Sequence record: NC_048071.1
Origin: Escherichia phage IMM-002
Reading direction: 5' to 3' (one strand)
DNA length: 40,060 nt
The notes below the pieces were generated by a model. It ran no database searches. It had not been told where the DNA came from and saw only the letters and a program-made list of their open reading frames with translations. A program made the translations under genes and the position numbers. Shown here one piece after another: positions 1 through 40,060 of this stretch (position 1 is the stretch's first letter; every line of letters begins with the position of its first letter).

Positions 1-189
1 TCTCACAGTTCAAGAACCTCAAGTCTCCCCATAGGGTCACTCTCAGTCCGACTCAAGGCCCTACCCATAGACCTTCGGTCTAAACCTCAAGTCATTGACC
101 CGAAGTCGCCCCGAAGTCTGGACTGATAGTGCCTATATCTTGTGGTTGGGACGATTGGTCGGGACTATATGTAGTGCCTCTGAGTCTCT
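1..189. repeat. Left direct terminal repeat (DTR), identical to 39872..40060
   Basis: First 189 nt match the last 189 nt of the window base for base (aligned by eye); T7-like genomes carry 160-230 bp DTRs. Confidence 0.9.
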
Positions 190-210
190 ATCTGTATCGA
201 CCTAATGTCA

Positions 211-305
211 ATCACCTACAGTCAACCAGCCTACAGTCTCACTACCTACAGTCATCTACCATCGGTAAAGCCATCACCTACAGCCAATAGACCTACAGTC
301 ACCAG
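211..305. repeat. Array of about 5 short direct repeats (A)CCTACAG(T/C)C next to the left DTR
   Basis: Copies at about 215, 230, 244, 277 and 292; analogous in position to the short repeats flanking the T7 terminal repeat. Confidence 0.6.
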
Positions 306-519
306 ACACTATGTCGACCTTCAGTTTATCAGAGTCCTAAGGTCTTAGACTCATAGGTTATCACATCCGGTCCGTTTAGCAGTCAGAGACCATAGCTGAC
401 TAGGGTTATCGTTGTTGGTGTCTGCCAACCGGACTCTTATTATCCATAGTACAGACTTAAAGTCAATCATCTGTAGTCGTCCTTATATAGTCACTGTACT
501 ACTGTATAAATTACCAGTG

Positions 520-548
520 TTGACAGTGGGTCTAACTTTTGGTTTAAT
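520..548 (+). promoter_or_regulatory. Candidate host sigma70 early promoter (TTGACA-17 nt-TTTAAT)
   Basis: -35 TTGACA 520..525, 17-nt spacer, -10 TTTAAT 543..548; position matches the T7 A1-A3 region. Confidence 0.55.
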
Positions 549-656
549 AGCTTCCGTCAACACGACACGGCAAACACCGGATAGTAGAGACACCGGGTCA
601 CACGGTTAAGTAGACAGCCTGATAAGTCATACGAACAACAGGCAGTGACAAATAGC

Positions 657-686
657 TTGACAAGATGTAGCGACTTAACGTAGTAT
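657..686 (+). promoter_or_regulatory. Candidate host sigma70 early promoter (TTGACA-18 nt-TAGTAT)
   Basis: -35 TTGACA 657..662, -10 TAGTAT 681..686; resembles T7 A2/A3 (TTGACA...TAAGAT). Confidence 0.55.
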
Positions 687-886
687 GCACCACATCGACA
701 CGGCACCAACGGTCGATAAGCAGTACCAGAGGCACCGCCTCGCCGCTCTTTAACAATCTGGATAAACTCTTAATGTGCGCCGATAGTAAGCGATTAACTA
801 CAGGGCCTTGAGTCTACCGCGAGACGGGCTTGACTTGAGCGACTCAGGGTCCTGACTGATAGTCACTAACTTAAAGGATACACATC

Positions 887-1339
887 ATGATTTACACTAA
901 CGAACCAGCCAACGTCTTCTATGTGCTCGTGTCTGCCGCTCGTGCTAACCTGTCTGACACGGTGAACATGGGCCGTCAGTTAGGCCTTAAGGCGCTGCTG
1001 CAAGCCGGACCAGAATACTACGGCGTGCTCGAATGCACCGGGCTTACTGGGTGCTACCGCGAGGAAGGGCAGGAAGTCGCCACTGAAGAGAGGACCTACC
1101 GTGTGCGCTGCGAGTCAAAGGCTCAAGCTATCAACGTTGCACGACTGGCCTGCAATGACTTTGAGCAAGACTGCGTGATGGTCTACAAGTCTCAGACTCA
1201 CACGGCTGGACTGATGTTCTGCAAGGGCTGGGACGGCTACAAGACCACAAGTCTGAACGGGTCATTCCAGCAAGTCGATGAACCAAAGGGCGAATGCTTC
1301 ACGAAAGACGCTGAAGGTCGCTTCTGGGAGGTGGTGTAA
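887..1339 (+). CDS. 0.3: S-adenosylmethionine-degrading enzyme (T3 gp0.3 SAMase-like anti-restriction protein)
   Basis: 150 aa, first gene after the early promoters, AAAGGA RBS; N-terminus MIYTNEPANVFYVLVSA and motifs TGLTGCYRE, VRCESKAQAINVARLACN, VYKSQTHTAGL match my recollection of T3 SAMase; not acidic like T7 Ocr. Confidence 0.65.
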   Translation: MIYTNEPANVFYVLVSAARANLSDTVNMGRQLGLKALLQAGPEYYGVLECTGLTGCYREEGQEVATEERTYRVRCESKAQAINVARLACNDFEQDCVMVYKSQTHTAGLMFCKGWDGYKTTSLNGSFQQVDEPKGECFTKDAEGRFWEVV

Positions 1340-3398: not shown

Positions 3399-3421
3399 AC
3401 TAAACTATCACTAAAGGACTC
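3399..3421 (+). promoter_or_regulatory. Phage-type promoter variant (TAAACTATCACTAAAGGAC) upstream of the RNAP gene
   Basis: Matches the phage promoter core except A at -2; predicted +1 G at 3416. Confidence 0.5.
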
Positions 3422-3496
3422 AAGGTCGAAAGACTCTAAGTCAGGACTGAAGTGAAAGACTTTAGTGATAAGACAACAGTTATAAGGACTTTAAGT

Positions 3497-6178
3497 ATGA
3501 GCGTCATCTCAATTGACAAGCACGACTTCTCTGATGTGTCGAATGCAATCGAACCATTCAACGTGCTGGCTGACCACTACGGTCAGGACCTAGCAGTAAA
3601 ACAGCTTCAGCTTGAGCATGAGGCGTACACTGAAGGCGAGCGACGTTTCATCAAGAACCTTGAGCGCCAAGCTGAGCGCGGGGAGCTGGCAGACAATCAG
3701 GTCGCCAAGCCACTGATGCAAACTCTGGTCCCGACCATCGCCAAGGCTGTTCGTGAGTGGCACGAAGGCCCGGACGGTAAGTCCTCGACCTCTCGCCCAA
3801 GCGTAGCGTTTACCATGCTGAGCACTGACGAGAAGGCTGTCAAAGACCGCTCTCTGCGAATCTCTGCTGAGTCTGCTGCGGTCATCATACTGAAAGTCAT
3901 CCTCAGCAAGCTGGTCAAGCCTGAGGGAATCCCGATAACGCCGATGGCCTCCGCGATTGGTCGCACACTTGAAGATGAAATCCGCTTCGGTCGCATCCGT
4001 GAGCAGGAGCAGGAGCACTTCAAGAAGACCATAGCTGAGAATCTGAAGAAACGTGCAGGAGCAAGCTACAAGAAAGCCTACATGCAAGCGGTCGAAGCCT
4101 CCATGCTGGAGCAAGGGCAACTGGCTGACGCTTGGGGGACTTGGAGTCCGACCGAGGCGGTACACGTAGGCATCAAGATGCTGGAGCTGGTCATCCAGTC
4201 CTCGCAACTGGTCGAACTGAAGCGCTACGGTGCGGGTAACGCTGCGGCAGACGTCGAGATGGTCCACCTGTCAGACTTCTGGGTCAAGAAGATGTCGCAA
4301 CGTGGCTTCTCACTGGCTGGCATCGCTCCGGTCTACCAACCTTGCGTCGTTCCACCTAAGCCGTGGACCGGGGTCGTGGGTGGTGGGTACTGGGCTAAGG
4401 GCCGAAGACCTCTCCCGCTGATTCGCTTAGGGTCCAAGGCTGCGGTCCAGCGCTACGAAGACGTGTACATGCCTGAAGTCTACGAGGCAGTGAATATCAT
4501 CCAGCAGACACCTTGGAAGGTGAACAAGAAGGTGCTGGACGTGGTGAACATGGTCGAGAAGCTGAACAACACGCCTATCGCTGACATCCCTCAGATGGAA
4601 CCGATGAAGCCTGAGGACTATGCAGGTGAGACCGAGGAAGAACTCAAAGCGTGGAAGAAAGCCGCTGCTGGTATCTATCGACGCGAGAAGGCCCGACAGT
4701 CCCGCCGTTTGTCCCTGAGCTTCATCGTCGGACAGGCGAACAAGTTCTCTCAGTTCAAGGCCATCTGGTTCCCATACAACATGGACTGGCGCGGTCGAGT
4801 CTATGCGGTCCCGATGTTCAACCCTCAGGGTAACGACATGCAGAAGGGCCTGCTGACTCTGGCAGTAGGCAAGCCAATCGGTGCGGACGGCTTCAAGTGG
4901 CTGAAGGTCCACGGTGCAAACTGCGCTGGTGTCGATAAAGTCACCTTCGAGGAGCGCATCAAGTGGGTCGAAGACAACCACGACAACATCCTCGCGGCTG
5001 CTAAGAGTCCGATGGATAGCATTGACTGGTGGGGTCAGTTAGACTCTCCGTTCTGCTTCCTCGCGTTCTGCTTCGAGTATGCTGGAGTCATGCACCACGG
5101 GCTGAGCTACTCCTGCTCACTGCCTATCGCGTTCGATGGGTCCTGCTCTGGGATTCAGCACTTCAGCGCGATGCTTCGTGACCACGTTGGTGGACATGCG
5201 GTCAACCTGACGCCAAGCGGGAAGGTCCAAGACATCTACCGCATTGTGTCAGACCGGGTGGAAGAACAGCTTAAGGAGCTGCTGGTCAACGGAAGTGACA
5301 ACGAGGTGAAGACCTTCGAGGACAAGAAGACAGGCGAGATTACTGAACGTCTGGTCCTTGGAACTCGCGAGCTGGCCCGTCAGTGGCTGACCTACGGGAT
5401 GTCACGCTCGGTCACTAAACGCTCGGTCATGACTCTGGCCTATGGGTCGAAGGAATACGGGTTCGCGGACCAAGTGTTTGAGGACACCGTGATGCCAGCG
5501 ATTGACAGCGGCAAGGGCGCGATGTTCACGGACCCAAGCCAAGCGTCACGCTTCATGGCTAAGATGATTTGGGATGCGGTAAGCGTGACCGTAGTTGCTG
5601 CGGTAGACGCGATGAAGTGGCTGCAAGGCGCTGCTAAACTGCTGGCTGCTGAGGTCAAGGACAAGAAGACAAAAGAGGTCCTTAAGCCTTGCCTCCCGGT
5701 TCACTGGGTAACGCCTGATGGCTTCCCGGTCTGGCAGGAATACCGAAAGAAGGACACCACCCGTCTGAACCTCCTGTTCCTTGGGTCGTTCAACCTGCAA
5801 CCGACAGTCAACAAAGGGTCTAAGAAAGAGCTGGACAAGCACAAGCAGGAGTCTGGTATCAGCCCTAACTTTGTACACTCACAGGACGGCAGTCACCTGA
5901 GGAAGACTGTGGTCCACACCCACCGCAAGTATGGCGTGATGTCCTTCGCAGTGATTCACGATAGCTTCGGGACCATCCCGGCTGACGCTGAGTTCCTGTT
6001 CAAGGGTGTCCGTGAGACGATGGTTGAGACCTACCGCGACAACGATGTGCTGCAAGACTTCTACGAGCAGTTCGCAGACCAGCTTCATGAGAGCCAGCGC
6101 GACAAGTTGCCCGAGCTGCCGAAGCGCGGTAAACTGAACATCGAAGACATTCTGTTATCTGACTTTGCATTCGCCTAA
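3497..6178 (+). CDS. 1: Single-subunit DNA-directed RNA polymerase (T7 gene 1 type)
   Basis: 893 aa from ATG 3497 (AAGGA RBS; track ORF opens at 3452); collinear with T7 RNAP incl. PWTGxxGGGYWA, AIWFPYNMDWRGRVYA, FCFLAFCFEYAGV, SGIQHFSAMLRD, HDSFGT and C-terminal SDFAFA. Confidence 0.97.
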   Translation: MSVISIDKHDFSDVSNAIEPFNVLADHYGQDLAVKQLQLEHEAYTEGERRFIKNLERQAERGELADNQVAKPLMQTLVPTIAKAVREWHEGPDGKSSTSRPSVAFTMLSTDEKAVKDRSLRISAESAAVIILKVILSKLVKPEGIPITPMASAIGRTLEDEIRFGRIREQEQEHFKKTIAENLKKRAGASYKKAYMQAVEASMLEQGQLADAWGTWSPTEAVHVGIKMLELVIQSSQLVELKRYGAGNAAADVEMVHLSDFWVKKMSQRGFSLAGIAPVYQPCVVPPKPWTGVVGGGYWAKGRRPLPLIRLGSKAAVQRYEDVYMPEVYEAVNIIQQTPWKVNKKVLDVVNMVEKLNNTPIADIPQMEPMKPEDYAGETEEELKAWKKAAAGIYRREKARQSRRLSLSFIVGQANKFSQFKAIWFPYNMDWRGRVYAVPMFNPQGNDMQKGLLTLAVGKPIGADGFKWLKVHGANCAGVDKVTFEERIKWVEDNHDNILAAAKSPMDSIDWWGQLDSPFCFLAFCFEYAGVMHHGLSYSCSLPIAFDGSCSGIQHFSAMLRDHVGGHAVNLTPSGKVQDIYRIVSDRVEEQLKELLVNGSDNEVKTFEDKKTGEITERLVLGTRELARQWLTYGMSRSVTKRSVMTLAYGSKEYGFADQVFEDTVMPAIDSGKGAMFTDPSQASRFMAKMIWDAVSVTVVAAVDAMKWLQGAAKLLAAEVKDKKTKEVLKPCLPVHWVTPDGFPVWQEYRKKDTTRLNLLFLGSFNLQPTVNKGSKKELDKHKQESGISPNFVHSQDGSHLRKTVVHTHRKYGVMSFAVIHDSFGTIPADAEFLFKGVRETMVETYRDNDVLQDFYEQFADQLHESQRDKLPELPKRGKLNIEDILLSDFAFA

Positions 6179-18006: not shown

Positions 18007-18029
18007 ACTAAACTATCACTATAGGGACT
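18007..18029 (+). promoter_or_regulatory. Phage RNAP promoter (phi6.5-equivalent)
   Basis: CTAAACTATCACTATAGGGAC, +1 about 18024. Confidence 0.85.
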
Positions 18030-18091
18030 TTAGGACCTAAGTTATGACTATAAGATAGACTTAAGTTAATACTTTAAGAGGAGACTTTAAG

Positions 18092-36444: not shown

Positions 36445-36639
36445 ATGATTGAGTTCGACTTCAAGAATGAGGTCCTCAAAGCCTCGCCTATCGTCGGGAC
36501 CGCTGCGGCTGATGGTGCCAGTCGGTTCTTCTTTGGGTTAACGCTCAACGAATGGTTCTACGTCGCTGCTATCGCGTACACCGTGGTGCAGATTGGCGTC
36601 CTAATTTACAAGACGATTAAGAGCGGAGGTAAGACATGA
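36445..36639 (+). CDS. 17.5: Class II holin
   Basis: 64 aa; KASPIVGTAAADGASRFFFGLTLNEWFYVAAIAYTVVQIG nearly identical to T7 gp17.5. Confidence 0.9.
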   Translation: MIEFDFKNEVLKASPIVGTAAADGASRFFFGLTLNEWFYVAAIAYTVVQIGVLIYKTIKSGGKT

Positions 36640-36899
36640 CGCAGATGGACTTAGAGAAGTTCCTGTTAATGCTGGACACTGAACGTGCTCGACTCATGCT
36701 GCAAGACCTGCGGGATGACTCTAAGCGCTCGCCCCAGCTTTACAACGCCATCGAGAAGCTGTTGGCCCGTCACAACTTTGTGTTGAGCAAGGTGTCGGTG
36801 GACGAGAAGCAGTTGGCTGACATGGAGGCTCTGAACAGAGAGTACGACAAGGTGCTATCAGCTGCCGAAGATAATGACACCGGGTATGGTGTCCAATAA
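36636..36899 (+). CDS. 18: Terminase small subunit
   Basis: 87 aa; FLLMLDTERARLMLQDL, RSPQLYNAIEKLLARHNF match T7 gp18. Confidence 0.9.
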   Translation: MTQMDLEKFLLMLDTERARLMLQDLRDDSKRSPQLYNAIEKLLARHNFVLSKVSVDEKQLADMEALNREYDKVLSAAEDNDTGYGVQ

Positions 36900-37001: not shown

Positions 37002-37451
37002 ATGCTCAAACTTTTACGACAGGCCGTCCCTTGGCTGGTGGCAGGACTCCTGTTCTGTTCTGGCTACTGGGTGGCAGACAATAAGTGGGAGGCGAAGGTA
37101 AACAATGAGTACATCACGAAACTTGAAGCAACTGAGCAGTCGAGGCGTTCAGTGCAGTCCGAAGTCAACAAAGTCTCAGCCGAGTGGCAGGACAAGATGT
37201 CCGAGCTGGAAGGCTCTACTGATAGGGTTATTGCTGACCTTAACCGCGATAACAAGCGGCTGCGCGTCAAAGTCAACACCACAGGTATCACCGAGTCAGA
37301 TTACAGTCGATGCTTCCCTGATGGTCGAGTCGAACTACACCCAGAGACTTCTAAAAGTCTTATCCGAATAACGCAGGAAGCAGACCTTAAGGAGAAAGCC
37401 CTTCAGGATACCATACGTAAGCTTCAGCAAGAGAAGGAGGCGAAACCTTGA
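37002..37451 (+). CDS. 18.5: Rz-like i-spanin
   Basis: 149 aa; N-terminal TM ([13 protein letters not shown]), [27 protein letters not shown] and QDTIRKLQ match T7 gp18.5. Confidence 0.9.
37105..37371 (+). CDS. 18.7: Rz1-like o-spanin lipoprotein, embedded in +1 frame within 18.5
   Basis: 88 aa; lipobox-like AITSGC, Pro-rich; aligns with T7 gp18.7 (ISGCAS...VDSSLMVEPN). Confidence 0.85.
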   Translation: MSTSRNLKQLSSRGVQCSPKSTKSQPSGRTRCPSWKALLIGLLLTLTAITSGCASKSTPQVSPSQITVDASLMVESNYTQRLLKVLSE

Positions 37452-39211
37452 GTCAAGACTTAGCGGCGCGTCAGGCGCTTATGACTGCCCGTATGAAGGC
37501 AGACTTCGTGTTCTTCCTGTTCGTCCTGTGGAAAGCTCTGTCCCTACCGGTCCCGACTCGCTGTCAGATTGACATGGCGAAGAAACTATCGGCTGGGGAC
37601 AATAGGCGCTTCATCCTACAGGCGTTCCGTGGTATCGGGAAGTCCTTCATTACGTGTGCCTTCGTGGTCTGGAAGCTATGGAATAACCCGGACTTGAAGT
37701 TCATGATTGTGTCGGCCTCAAAGGAACGAGCCGATGCGAACTCCATCTTCATCAAGCGTATCATTGACCTGATGCCTCAGCTCCAAGAGTTGAAGCCTAA
37801 GCAGGGGCAGCGAGACGCAGTAATCAGCTTCGACGTAGGGCCTGCCAAGCCTGACCACTCACCTTCGGTTAAGTCCGTTGGTATCACTGGTCAGTTAACT
37901 GGTAGCCGTGCGGACATCCTGATTGCCGATGACGTAGAGGTCCCCGGTAACTCAGCGACTCAAGCTGCAAGGGACCGACTGTCTGAGCTGGTGAAAGAGT
38001 TCGACGCAATCCTGAAGCCGGGTGGTACGGTTATCTATCTGGGTACTCCTCAGACCGAGATGACCCTGTATCGTCAGCTTGAGGGTCGTGGTTACTCGAC
38101 TACCATCTGGCCAGCTCGTTACCCGCGTGATGAGAAGGACTGGAAGTCTTACGGCGACCGTCTGGCTCCGATGCTTCAGGCTGAGCTTGAGTCCGACCCT
38201 GAGGGCTACTACTGGCTCCCAACGGATGAGGTCCGCTTCGACGATGAGGACTTGAAGGAACGTGAGCTGTCCTATGGCAAGGCTGGCTTCGCTCTCCAAT
38301 TCATGCTCAACCCGAACCTTGGCGATGCCGAGAAGTACCCGCTGAAGCTGCGTGACCTTATCGTAGCGGACTTGGACCCTGAGTCTAGCCCTATGGTCTA
38401 CCAGTGGCTCCCGAACCTCCAGAACAAGCGTGATGACGTTCCTAACGTGGGACTCATGGGTGACACCTACCACACGTATCAGACTGTAGGTTCTGCTTTC
38501 AGTTCGTACACCCAGAAGATTCTGGTCATTGACCCTAGTGGTCGTGGTAAGGATGAGACGGGTTATGCGGTCCTGTATCAGCTCAACGGCTACATCTTCG
38601 TGATGGAAGCTGGTGGTATGCGCGGTGGCTATGAGGACTCAACGCTGGAGGCTCTGGCGAAGATTGGTCGCAAGTGGAAGGTGAACGAGTACGTCATTGA
38701 GGGTAACTTCGGTGATGGTATGTACCTCGAACTCTTCAAGCCTGTAGCGGCCCGTATTCACCCGGCAGCAGTGACTGAGGTCAAGAGCAAGGGTCAGAAG
38801 GAACTCCGCATCTGCGACGTTCTGGAGCCTATCATGGGGTCTCACCGACTCATCGTGAACTCCTCGACCATTGTGTCTGACTACCAGACTGCTGCTGACA
38901 AGGATGGAGTCCGTAACCCTATCTACTCTCTGTTCTACCAGATGACCCGTATCAGCCGTGAACGTGGAGCCTTGGCACACGATGACCGACTGGATGCTCT
39001 GGCTATCGGTGTACAGTTCTTCGTAGAGTCTATGGCTAAGGATGCCGTGAAGGGCCAGCGTGAAGTTACCGAGGAGTGGCTGGAGGAACAGATGGAAGAC
39101 CCGAAGAAGGGCTTTAAGTCCATCGAGACGGACTACTGGGCCAATGGGGTCCGGGTACAGTTCAATACAGATGATGACTTGGGCTTAGGGTCATACGTTC
39201 AGTTCCACTGA
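37448..39211 (+). CDS. 19: Terminase large subunit
   Basis: 587 aa with TTG start overlapping the 18.5 stop (N-terminus aligns residue-for-residue with T7 gp19); [134 protein letters not shown]. Confidence 0.96.
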
Positions 39212-39305: not shown

Positions 39306-39328
39306 ACTTAACTATCACTATAGGGAAG
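39306..39328 (+). promoter_or_regulatory. Phage RNAP promoter (phiOR-equivalent)
   Basis: GGACTTAACTATCACTATAGGGAAG, +1 about 39323. Confidence 0.8.
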
Positions 39329-39504: not shown

Positions 39505-39663
39505 ATGGGTAAGACCAAAGCTGTTCTCAAAGCTCTGGCGACCAATAGAGCTACGTACAGGTTTCTTGCTGCTGTTCTACTTGCTGCTGGCGTTACTGCT
39601 GGAAGTCAGTGGGTCGGGTGGGTCGAGACTCTCGTATGTACTCTGGTGTCTGAGTGTCATTAA
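39505..39663 (+). CDS. 19.5: gp19.5-like small protein
   Basis: 52 aa (below track cut-off), AGGAGG RBS 8 nt upstream; ...RATYRFLAAVLLAAG... resembles T7 gp19.5 (HRVTYRFLVVLCAALG). Confidence 0.6.
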   Translation: MGKTKAVLKALATNRATYRFLAAVLLAAGVTAGSQWVGWVETLVCTLVSECH

Positions 39664-39693
39664 CGCCATAATGGTAACAATCAACGAAAGCAA

Positions 39694-39820
39694 GACCTAA
39701 GGTCAGTTCATAGCTGACGCTACTCTACTGACCTTAGCTACTGAAGTCAAGACCTACAGTCAACACTATAGAAGCTATGGTCTCTCAGGGTCGTTAGGAC
39801 CTACGGTCTGACCTACGGAT
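39694..39820. repeat. Related short repeats GACCTA(A/C)(A/G)GTC next to the right DTR
   Basis: gacctaaggtcag, tgaccttagcta, gacctacagtcaac, gacctacggtctgacctacgg. Confidence 0.55.
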
Positions 39821-39871
39821 GGGCCTCCTTAAGAGGGACGATGAGTTTTGGACCAAAAGTTCGAGAGTCCA

Positions 39872-40060
39872 TCTCACAGTTCAAGAACCTCAAGTCTCCC
39901 CATAGGGTCACTCTCAGTCCGACTCAAGGCCCTACCCATAGACCTTCGGTCTAAACCTCAAGTCATTGACCCGAAGTCGCCCCGAAGTCTGGACTGATAG
40001 TGCCTATATCTTGTGGTTGGGACGATTGGTCGGGACTATATGTAGTGCCTCTGAGTCTCT
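39872..40060. repeat. Right direct terminal repeat (DTR)
   Basis: Identical to 1..189; window ends inside or at the end of the repeat. Confidence 0.9.

What the first reader, a model, noticed from the sequence alone, without database searches (positions are those of the whole stretch)
1..305. Genome ends: 189-bp direct terminal repeat plus flanking short-repeat arrays
The exact terminal redundancy shows the window is a full linear genome. Arrays of CCTACAGTC-like motifs inside the left DTR boundary and GACCTA..GTC motifs inside the right one resemble the short repeats near the T7 ends that are implicated in end formation.
Basis: seen in the sequence. Interest (0 to 1): 0.3.

Follow-up and report, generated by a model that had tools for sequence, protein, structure and literature searches.

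The report
T7-type phage genome ends
The window is a complete linear genome of a K1F-like relative of phage T7, and its 189-bp terminal repeat with flanking short-repeat arrays is the usual end structure of this phage group, so the finding is correct but ordinary.

Summary
Bases 1-189 and 39872-40060 are identical. CCTACAGTC-type units cluster at 201-344 and 39694-39820, all on the + strand (P about 1e-11 and 2e-5). The arrays lie just outside the repeat on its genome side, not within it.

The window is a Kayfunavirus (K1F-like, Studiervirinae); its nearest relative is Escherichia phage Pisces. Both repeat boundaries fall on the conserved positions of T7, T3, K11, K1F and SH4. SH4/SH5 ends were mapped on virion DNA. 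This makes an assembly artefact very unlikely.

- ATCTGTA at 190-196, directly after the repeat, where T7, T3 and K11 have ATCTGTT, the T7 RNA polymerase pause signal of the concatemer junction.
- A conserved 33-bp block before the left-end cut (39839-39871).
- A conserved hairpin-forming inverted repeat (39697-39737).
- The phiOR promoter (39310-39326).

Together these form a T7-type concatemer-junction maturation region served by T7-type terminase genes.

The array motif differs by genus but matches on both flanks. Its 11-nt core is conserved while the spacers are not, which suggests protein-binding arrays; their function is unproven. Already known; low interest.

The parts
1..189 (.). Left copy of the direct terminal repeat (DTR). 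It begins with the conserved left terminus TCTCACAGTT.
   Evidence: Identical to 39872-40060. The first 34 nt are invariant in 20 Kayfunavirus junctions, while the interior (about 70-130) is poorly conserved.
39872..40060 (.). Right copy of the direct terminal repeat.
   Evidence: Circularly permuted assemblies of relatives carry one copy between the right and left unique flanks.
190..196 (+). ATCTGTA, the first bases after the repeat. It sits where T7 has the concatemer-junction class II pause heptamer ATCTGTT.
   Evidence: ATCTGTA is invariant at this place in 20 Kayfunavirus junctions and in K1F. T7 (161), T3 (232) and K11 (182) have ATCTGTT; the K11 record annotates 180-188 as 'concatemeric junction'. 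Strand bias is shown.
201..344 (+). Left short-repeat array, the counterpart of T7 SRL. Eight units with core ACCTACAGTC(A/T), spaced mostly 14-15 bp.
39694..39820 (+). Right short-repeat array, the counterpart of T7 SRR. Four GACCTAnnGnn units.
39697..39737 (.). Perfect 11-bp inverted repeat (CTAAGGTCAGT / ACTGACCTTAG) with a 19-nt loop, at the start of the right array just after gene 19.5.
   Evidence: The DNA fold gives -11.2 kcal/mol, z = -3.1 to -5.0. The arms are invariant in 20 relatives across three different loops. T7, T3 and K11 have a different imperfect inverted repeat at the same place.
39839..39871 (+). Conserved block immediately left of the left-end cut site: CGATGAGTTTTGGACCAAAAGTTCGAGAGTCCA followed by TCTCACAG.
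   Evidence: Nearly invariant in 20 relatives. T7, T3 and K11 show ACCAnAAAAnTCTGA...A followed by TCTCA at the same place.
39310..39326 (+). Phage RNA polymerase promoter, the counterpart of T7 phiOR. It is the last promoter before the junction.
   Evidence: Exact match to the window's own promoter consensus AACTATCACTATAGGGA; 11 sites against 0.03 expected. phiOR is annotated at the same relative place in T7, T3 and K11.
469..475 (+). Second ATCTGTA, a possible back-up pause site (tentative).
   Evidence: The same bases occur in the Pisces, Ro45lw and MopsHU1 left ends. Function not tested.
36636..36899 (+). Gene 18, small terminase subunit (acts in trans).
   Evidence: Pfam PF11123 DNA_Packaging_2, E = 5e-12.
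37448..39211 (+). Gene 19, T7-type large terminase subunit (acts in trans).
   Evidence: Pfam PF22530 Terminase-T7_RNaseH-like, E = 1e-37.

Best explanation
What it is. The window is one unit-length virion chromosome of a Kayfunavirus (a K1F-like member of the T7 group). The 189-bp repeat is a true direct terminal repeat.

Layout in the replicating concatemer. [quoted passage not shown]
1. phiOR promoter
2. gene 19.5
3. hairpin
4. right array
5. pre-cut block
6. terminal repeat
7. ATCTGTA
8. left array

How it most likely works, by homology with T7 (inferred, not shown for this phage):
- Phage RNA polymerase starts at phiOR, transcribes across the repeat and pauses at the heptamer just beyond it.
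- The paused polymerase recruits the gp18/gp19 terminase with a prohead.
- The mature right end is cut at ...GAGTCTCT, directly before ATCTGTA.
- The repeat is copied so that the next genome also keeps one.
- The left end is cut at ...GAGAGTCCA, directly before TCTCACAG.

The arrays. They are most likely multi-site binding platforms for a packaging or maturation protein on both sides of the repeat. The small terminase is the obvious candidate. This step is the least certain, at about 0.35-0.4.
For: Shown here:
- The repeat is exact.
- The genome is collinear with Kayfunavirus genomes; Pisces matches from base 1 at 93.7% identity over 89% of the first 25 kb of the window.
- T7-type gp19 and gp18 are present.
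- Both repeat boundaries fall on sequences conserved across four genera: TCTCAYAGT at the left end and TCyCT followed by ATCTGTW at the right end.
- Within the genus, conservation is concentrated at the two boundaries, the hairpin arms and some array units, not in the repeat interior.
- The genus-specific heptamer is rare on the transcribed strand. T7 ATCTGTT and K11 ATCTGTT occur on the + strand only at the junction, and so does K1F ATCTGTA. The window has ATCTGTA on + only at 190, 469 and 1782, all upstream of the polymerase gene. The - strands carry 4, 1, 4 and 3 copies, near expectation.
- The array motif is genus-specific but the same on both flanks: T7 CCTAAAG; T3 CCTAAAG and CCTGTAG; K11 ACCTGAG; K1F and the window ACCTACAG.
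- Across 20 relatives the 11-nt core is conserved, the spacers are uninformative, and copy number varies: 2-8 on the left, 3-5 on the right.

From the literature:
- SH4/SH5 ends were mapped on virion DNA, giving a 190-bp repeat (PMC4925675).
- The junction is a class II pause/termination signal with a strictly conserved 7-base motif (bioRxiv 10.64898/2026.02.12.705533).
- There is one repeat copy per junction and it is duplicated at packaging (PMC10438801; PMC5000459).
Against: - No reads or virion DNA are available for this isolate, so its physical ends are inferred from homology. The depositor may have added the right-hand copy.
- The heptamer is ATCTGTA, not the ATCTGTT described as strictly conserved for T7 polymerase. 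Pausing by a Kayfunavirus polymerase is untested.
- The strand-bias counts are small, with about 2-3 expected per strand per genome. K1F and the window are not independent samples.
- No protein is known to bind the short repeats in any T7-like phage.
- The hairpin arms never vary, so there is no covariation evidence for pairing.
Confidence: 0.85

Rival explanations
1. The 189-bp redundancy is an artefact. On this reading it is either the overlap left when a circular or permuted assembly was linearised, or a copy pasted on by analogy, and the virion DNA ends elsewhere.
For: Many relatives are deposited as permuted single-copy assemblies. Some records carry repeat lengths that are off by 1-16 bp. 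No reads are available for this window.
Against: An arbitrary overlap would not start exactly at TCTCACAGT and end exactly before ATCTGTA. Those are the boundaries of the experimentally mapped SH4/SH5 ends and of T7, T3, K11 and K1F. Also, 189 is not a usual assembler k-mer length (my own knowledge).
Confidence: 0.04
2. The repeat is real, but the flanking arrays are functionless products of replication slippage or unequal recombination in non-coding DNA.
For: Copy number varies from 2 to 8 among close relatives, in a roughly 15-bp register. Tandem Repeats Finder reports 15-bp periods. From memory, T7 tolerates deletion of gene 19.5 and the neighbouring 'm' element (Kim and Chung 1996; not verified here).
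Against: - Simple duplication would copy spacers as well as cores. Here the cores are conserved (1.1-2 bits per position) and the spacers are not (0.0-0.4 bits).
- Arrays persist at both flanks, always on the same strand, in four genera.
- The motif is genus-specific yet the same on left and right.
Confidence: 0.22
3. The arrays act in transcription or DNA entry rather than in packaging. Examples are slowing the phage polymerase after the junction pause, serving the leftward host promoter, or controlling the first stretch of DNA to enter the cell.
For: The left array lies directly downstream of the pause heptamer. A second ATCTGTA lies at 469. A leftward sigma-70-like promoter (466 to 439) points into the array. 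From my own knowledge of T7, the left end is the first DNA to enter the cell.
Against: The same motif also stands on the right flank, upstream of the repeat. That fits a junction-centred role better than a role specific to the left end. No direct evidence supports either reading.
Confidence: 0.13
4. The arrays are dense primase recognition sites. T7 gp4 primase recognises 5'-GTC-3', so the arrays would set where the last lagging-strand primers are laid near the ends.
For: RGTC on the + strand is 2.5-3.4 times enriched in the repeat and in both arrays.
Against: - The element shared across genera is CCTNNNG, not GTC. Most T7 units are CCTAAAGAC or CCTAAAGCC, and K11 units are ACCTGAGGTTA.
- The preferred T7 pentamers (GGGTC, TGGTC, GTGTC; my own knowledge) are not the array units.
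- The orientation is the same at both ends, which would not suit the leftward fork.
Confidence: 0.04

Closest known systems
Bacteriophage T7 genome ends: 160-bp terminal repeat, the flanking short-repeat arrays SRL and SRR, the concatemer-junction pause site and phiOR
   Same: - The order of elements is the same: promoter, gene 19.5, inverted repeat, right array, A/T-rich pre-cut block, repeat starting TCTCACAGT, heptamer directly after the repeat, left array, host promoters, gene 0.3.
- All repeat units lie on the + strand.
- The terminase genes are T7-type.
   Different: - The repeat is 189 bp rather than 160 bp.
- The unit is ACCTACAGTC rather than CCTAAAG.
- The heptamer is ATCTGTA rather than ATCTGTT.
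- No phiOL-like phage promoter is found in the left 900 bp.
- The hairpin sequence differs.
Kayfunavirus ends: K1F (179-bp repeat), Citrobacter phages SH4/SH5 (190 bp, mapped on virion DNA), Pisces and Ro45lw (190 bp), MopsHU1 (195 bp)
   Same: The first 30 bases, the pre-cut block, ATCTGTA after the repeat, the CCTACAGTC units and the hairpin arms are all the same.
   Different: - The left 1 kb is only about 81-86% identical to any relative.
- The repeat is 1 bp shorter because of a shorter C run.
- The unit order and number are its own.
- The right array follows the MopsHU1-like variant rather than the common four-unit form.
Klebsiella phage K11 (Przondovirus) and T3 (Teetrevirus) ends
   Same: The left terminus is TCTCAYAGTT. 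The repeat (180 and 231 bp) is followed at once by the heptamer. Arrays flank both sides. phiOR lies upstream.
   Different: The heptamer is ATCTGTT. The array motifs are ACCTGAG(G) in K11 and CCTAAAG/CCTGTAG in T3.
Repeated small-terminase binding sites at other phage packaging sites (lambda cosB R sites; SPP1 pacL/pacR boxes). This is an analogy from my own knowledge.
   Same: Several short same-sense sites flank the terminase cleavage region.
   Different: No binding of gp18 or any other protein to the T7-group arrays has been shown. The T7 group also needs transcription and duplication of the repeat, which lambda and SPP1 do not.

Membership tests
T7-type (Studiervirinae) genome with short exact direct terminal repeats | Identical sequence of roughly 150-250 bp at both ends of a genome of about 40 kb | tested here: met
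   1-189 equals 39872-40060, exact; the genome is 40060 bp.
T7-type (Studiervirinae) genome with short exact direct terminal repeats | Left terminus and the sequence before the cut are conserved with phages whose ends were mapped | tested here: met
   TCTCACAGT at base 1, as in T7, K11, K1F and SH4. The pre-cut block is conserved in 20 relatives. SH4/SH5 ends were mapped on virion DNA.
T7-type (Studiervirinae) genome with short exact direct terminal repeats | T7-type large and small terminase genes and collinear gene order | tested here: met
   PF22530 (E = 1e-37) and PF11123 (E = 5e-12). Collinear megablast match to Kayfunavirus genomes from base 1.
T7-type (Studiervirinae) genome with short exact direct terminal repeats | Physical ends of this phage's virion DNA lie at these positions, and the repeat has double read depth | not testable with these tools
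   No reads or DNA are available. Supported only by homology.
T7 concatemer-junction class II pause signal | Located immediately to the right of the terminal repeat | tested here: met
   Positions 190-196, directly after base 189. This matches the place in T7 (161), T3 (232) and K11 (182).
T7 concatemer-junction class II pause signal | Strictly conserved heptamer ATCTGTT preceded by A, C or T | tested here: not met
   The window has T followed by ATCTGTA, a 6 of 7 match with the last base A. The variant is invariant in 21 Kayfunavirus genomes, so it works like the T7 signal at most and is not a sequence-level member.
T7 concatemer-junction class II pause signal | The phage RNA polymerase pauses there | not testable with these tools
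   There is only indirect support. The heptamer is absent from the + strand of the region transcribed by the phage polymerase, in the window and in K1F. The same holds for ATCTGTT in T7 and K11.
T7 SRL/SRR short-repeat arrays | Arrays of a short motif directly flank the repeat on its genome side at both ends, all on one strand | tested here: met
   Arrays at 201-344 and 39694-39820, with no - strand copies; P = 1e-11 and 2e-5.
T7 SRL/SRR short-repeat arrays | Motif CCTAAAG | tested here: not met
   The core here is ACCTACAGTC(A/T). The motif is genus-specific and only CCTNNNG is shared. This is a sequence variant of the same architecture.

The most novel reading that the evidence does not exclude
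The short-repeat arrays may be recognition platforms for the packaging machinery that co-evolve with it. This would explain why the core switches between genera (CCTAAAG, ACCTACAGTC, ACCTGAGG) yet stays the same on both flanks of the repeat. In parallel, Kayfunavirus polymerases may use a variant junction pause signal, ATCTGTA, in place of the ATCTGTT thought to be strictly required. If both hold, the function of the T7 short-repeat arrays, unexplained as far as I know, could be tested by swapping arrays and heptamers between genera.
Probability: 0.3. Interest if true: 0.4.

Novelty: already known. Interest (0 to 1): 0.15.

Why it matters
For this window the practical result is that the record is a complete genome in the correct orientation, with true ends. 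That matters for annotation, for comparing genomes, and for engineering K1F-like phages or junction-carrying transducing plasmids.

The biology is textbook T7. The small additions are:
- the genus-wide ATCTGTA variant of the junction heptamer;
- the left/right agreement of a genus-specific array motif;
- the conserved hairpin after gene 19.5.

These are leads for specialists in T7 packaging, not surprises.

Tried and rejected
- Long-range pairing between the repeat and the gene 0.3 leader. A perfect 13-nt inverted repeat links 50-62 and 802-814. It is not conserved in 20 relatives and shows no compensating changes. It is better explained as two copies of the same CCTnnnGTC-type unit, one of which forms an arm of the R0.3-like hairpin.
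- Array units as degenerate copies of the terminal cut site (CCTACAGTC against TCTCACAGT). The terminus is constant across genera while the array motif changes, so the two are not coupled.
- Array units as relics of phage promoters. The T3 promoter contains CTAAAG, but the Kayfunavirus and K11 promoters do not match their own array motifs.
- Primase-site arrays. See the rival explanations; rejected because GTC is not the part shared across genera.
- Coding potential. Small ORFs cross the region (95-205, 129-290, 205-348, 39848-39997). The two tested, 129-290 and 205-348, have no Pfam match. I did not test the ORFs for conservation in relatives; the sequence they cover varies widely among 20 relatives.
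- Rfam scan of the whole window found no family at gathering score.
- Literature. The papers I wanted for the T7 short repeats and hairpin are not held: Dunn and Studier 1983, Chung and Hinkle 1990, the K1F genome paper and the phiYeO3-12 genome paper. Statements about them rest on my own knowledge or on citations in held papers. One literature search (CCTAAAG as a free string) returned only irrelevant primer hits.

Full report
**Observation**

Window 1-189 and 39872-40060 are identical, and 189 is the longest exact terminal match.

Just inside the genome from the left copy there are eight + strand units:
- CCTAATGTC at 201
- CCTACAGTC at 215, 230, 245 and 292
- CCTACAGCC at 277
- CCTTCAGTT at 317
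- CCTAAGGTC at 336

Just left of the right copy there are four:
- GACCTAAGGTC at 39694
- GACCTACAGTC at 39751
- GACCTACGGTC at 39798
- GACCTACGGAT at 39810

CCTANNGTC occurs 6 times in 190-350 against 0.045 expected (P = 1e-11). It occurs 3 times in 39690-39871 against 0.051 expected (P = 2e-5). No copy lies on the - strand inside either array.

The arrays lie outside the repeat. Inside it there are only degenerate units ending in RGTC, at about 3.4 times the genome density. The reported range 1-305 truncates the left array.

**Identity of the window**

- The window is IMG/VR contig UViG_2974592685_000001, 40060 bp.
- It is a Kayfunavirus. It is collinear from base 1 with Escherichia phage Pisces, at 93.7% identity over 89% of its first 25 kb, and with GW1, SH4, Ro45lw, Dev2 and others.
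- It encodes a T7-type large terminase (37448-39211, PF22530) and small terminase (36636-36899, PF11123). The first gene, at 887-1339, is an S-adenosylmethionine lyase.
- The left 1 kb is only about 81-86% identical to any relative, so the ends diverge faster than the genes.

**Are the ends real?**

Exact redundancy alone does not prove physical ends. The boundaries do.

Base 1 starts TCTCACAGT, the first bases of T7, K11, K1F, SH4, Pisces, Ro45lw and MopsHU1; T3 has TCTCATAGT.

In records with an independently stated repeat, the repeat ends at ...GAGTCyCT and is followed by ATCTGTA. This holds for SH4 (191 bp), Ro45lw (190), MopsHU1 (195), Pisces (190) and one of 179 bp. Twelve permuted assemblies carry one copy with the same flanks.

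SH4/SH5 termini were determined by run-off sequencing from virion DNA, giving a 190-bp repeat (PMC4925675). The Pisces repeat was called from reads with PhageTerm.

An arbitrary overlap would not hit both conserved boundaries. I put the artefact rival at about 0.04.

**Anatomy of the junction**

Joined through one repeat copy, as in a concatemer, the elements run in this order:
- The phage promoter at 39310-39326. It matches the window's own promoter consensus exactly (11 sites against 0.03 expected) and sits where T7, T3 and K11 have phiOR.
- Gene 19.5 (39505-39663).
- A perfect 11-bp inverted repeat, 39697-39707 with 39727-39737.
- The right array.
- A conserved pre-cut block, 39839-39871.
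- The repeat.
- ATCTGTA at 190-196.
- The left array.

A MAFFT alignment of 20 junctions shows conservation concentrated in five places: the hairpin arms, GACCTACGGTC at 39798, positions 39839-39905 (pre-cut block plus the first 34 nt of the repeat), positions 181-197 (repeat end plus the heptamer), and some left units. The repeat interior is variable.

*The heptamer.* In T7 (161), T3 (232) and K11 (182) the repeat is followed at once by ATCTGTT. The K11 record labels 180-188 'concatemeric junction'. In T7 this is the class II pause/termination signal of T7 RNA polymerase, with a strictly conserved 7-base motif preceded by A, C or T (bioRxiv 10.64898/2026.02.12.705533).

All 21 Kayfunavirus genomes examined have ATCTGTA instead. 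The table shows where each genus's own heptamer occurs.

| Genome | Heptamer | + strand occurrences | - strand copies |
|---|---|---|---|
| T7 | ATCTGTT | 161 only | 4 |
| K11 | ATCTGTT | 182 only | 1 |
| K1F | ATCTGTA | 180 only | 4 |
| Window | ATCTGTA | 190, 469, 1782 | 3 |

The three window sites all lie upstream of the polymerase gene (3452-6178). Expectation is about 2-3 per strand. K1F tolerates ATCTGTT twice on the + strand.

The numbers are small. They fit selection against internal copies of a working pause signal, with ATCTGTA as the Kayfunavirus version.

*The hairpin.* As single-stranded DNA it folds at -11.2 kcal/mol, with z between -3.1 and -5.0. The arms are invariant in 20 relatives although three unrelated loops occur, each with its own small inner stem. 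T7, T3 and K11 carry a different imperfect inverted repeat (AGGGATTC...CATCCCT) at the same place, just after gene 19.5.

From memory, Chung, Nardone and Hinkle (1990) proposed a hairpin end on concatemers as an intermediate in duplicating the repeat. The paper is not held, so I cannot say whether this inverted repeat is the site they meant.

*The arrays.* An unbiased k-mer count shows that the dominant motif is genus-specific yet the same on both flanks.

| Phage | Dominant array motif |
|---|---|
| T7 | CCTAAAG |
| T3 | CCTAAAG and CCTGTAG |
| K11 | ACCTGAG(G) |
| K1F and window | ACCTACAG |

Across 20 Kayfunavirus junctions the left array has 2-8 units and the right array 3-5, spaced 14-16 bp. 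A profile of 95 distinct left units gives an 11-nt core, ACCTACAGTC(A/T), at 1.1-2 bits per position, with uninformative spacers at 0.0-0.4 bits.

Plain tandem duplication would conserve spacers as well as cores. The pattern therefore looks like selection on the core, as expected for repeated protein-binding sites.

**Mechanism**

By homology with T7, the phage polymerase starting at phiOR crosses the repeat and pauses at the heptamer. [quoted passage not shown]

The concatemer holds one repeat per junction, and a second copy is made during packaging (PMC10438801; PMC5000459). Cuts at ...GAGTCTCT before ATCTGTA and at ...GAGAGTCCA before TCTCACAG give the mature ends.

What is shown here is the anatomy, its conservation and the terminase type. 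The order of events is inferred from T7. The role of the arrays as binding platforms is my best guess, at about 0.35-0.4. The rivals are neutral slippage (0.22), a role in transcription or DNA entry (0.13) and primase sites (0.04).

**Comparison and novelty**

This is the known end architecture of the T7 group and, specifically, of K1F-like phages. It passes the tests for a T7-type direct-terminal-repeat genome and for the flanking-array architecture.

It fails two sequence-level tests: ATCTGTT (it has ATCTGTA) and CCTAAAG (it has ACCTACAGTC). So it is a sequence variant that probably works the same way. Nothing here is surprising to a specialist; interest is 0.15.

The most novel reading still open is that arrays and heptamer co-evolve with the packaging and transcription proteins of each genus. 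I give that a probability of about 0.3.

Noticed in passing
window 745-761: GCTCTTTAACAATCTGG, a boxA-like sequence, is identical in T7 (813-829), T3 (781-797), K1F (669-685) and about 20 other fetched left ends. It is one of the best-conserved stretches of the early leader.
   Followed up: partly
window 801-853: A strong RNA hairpin (-33 kcal/mol, z = -4.2) lies just upstream of gene 0.3 (887). The T3 record annotates the RNase III site R0.3 at the same relative place.
   Followed up: partly
window 50-62 and 802-814: A perfect 13-nt inverted repeat links the terminal repeat to the 5' arm of the R0.3-like hairpin. It is not conserved in 20 relatives, so it is probably a by-product of shared CCTnnnGTC-type units.
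   Followed up: yes
window 439-466, - strand: A leftward sigma-70-like promoter (TTGACT, 16-nt spacer, GATAAT; 10 of 12 matches) points toward the left array and the repeat. T7 has its leftward A0 promoter in a comparable region.
   Followed up: no
window 469-475: A second ATCTGTA lies 279 bp after the first. The same bases are present in the Pisces, Ro45lw and MopsHU1 left ends but not in SH4.
   Followed up: partly
window 1-900: No phage-type promoter comparable to phiOL of T7 (405), T3 (366-388) or K11 (479-501) is found. The first match to the window's promoter consensus is at 3403, and it is weak, with 3 mismatches.
   Followed up: partly
window 520-548 and 657-686: There are two candidate strong early host promoters, sited as T7 A1-A3 are. 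The first is TTGACA, 17-nt spacer, TTTAAT; it was read by eye and was not called by the scan. The second is TTGACA, 18-nt spacer, TAGTAT.
   Followed up: no
window 484-512: The stretch TATATAGTCACTGTACTACTGTATAAATTA is well conserved in the Pisces, MopsHU1, Ro45lw and SH4 left ends. It has no assigned function and is not a good match to the phage promoter.
   Followed up: no
window 18034-18087: A 24-bp tandem repeat (2.2 copies) directly follows the phage promoter at 18011-18027.
   Followed up: no
L036 (IMGVR_UViG_3300045988_000139): One metagenomic relative appears to have a 231-bp repeat and carries TTTTATACCAAAA in place of the otherwise invariant TTTTGGACCAAAA in the pre-cut block.
   Followed up: no
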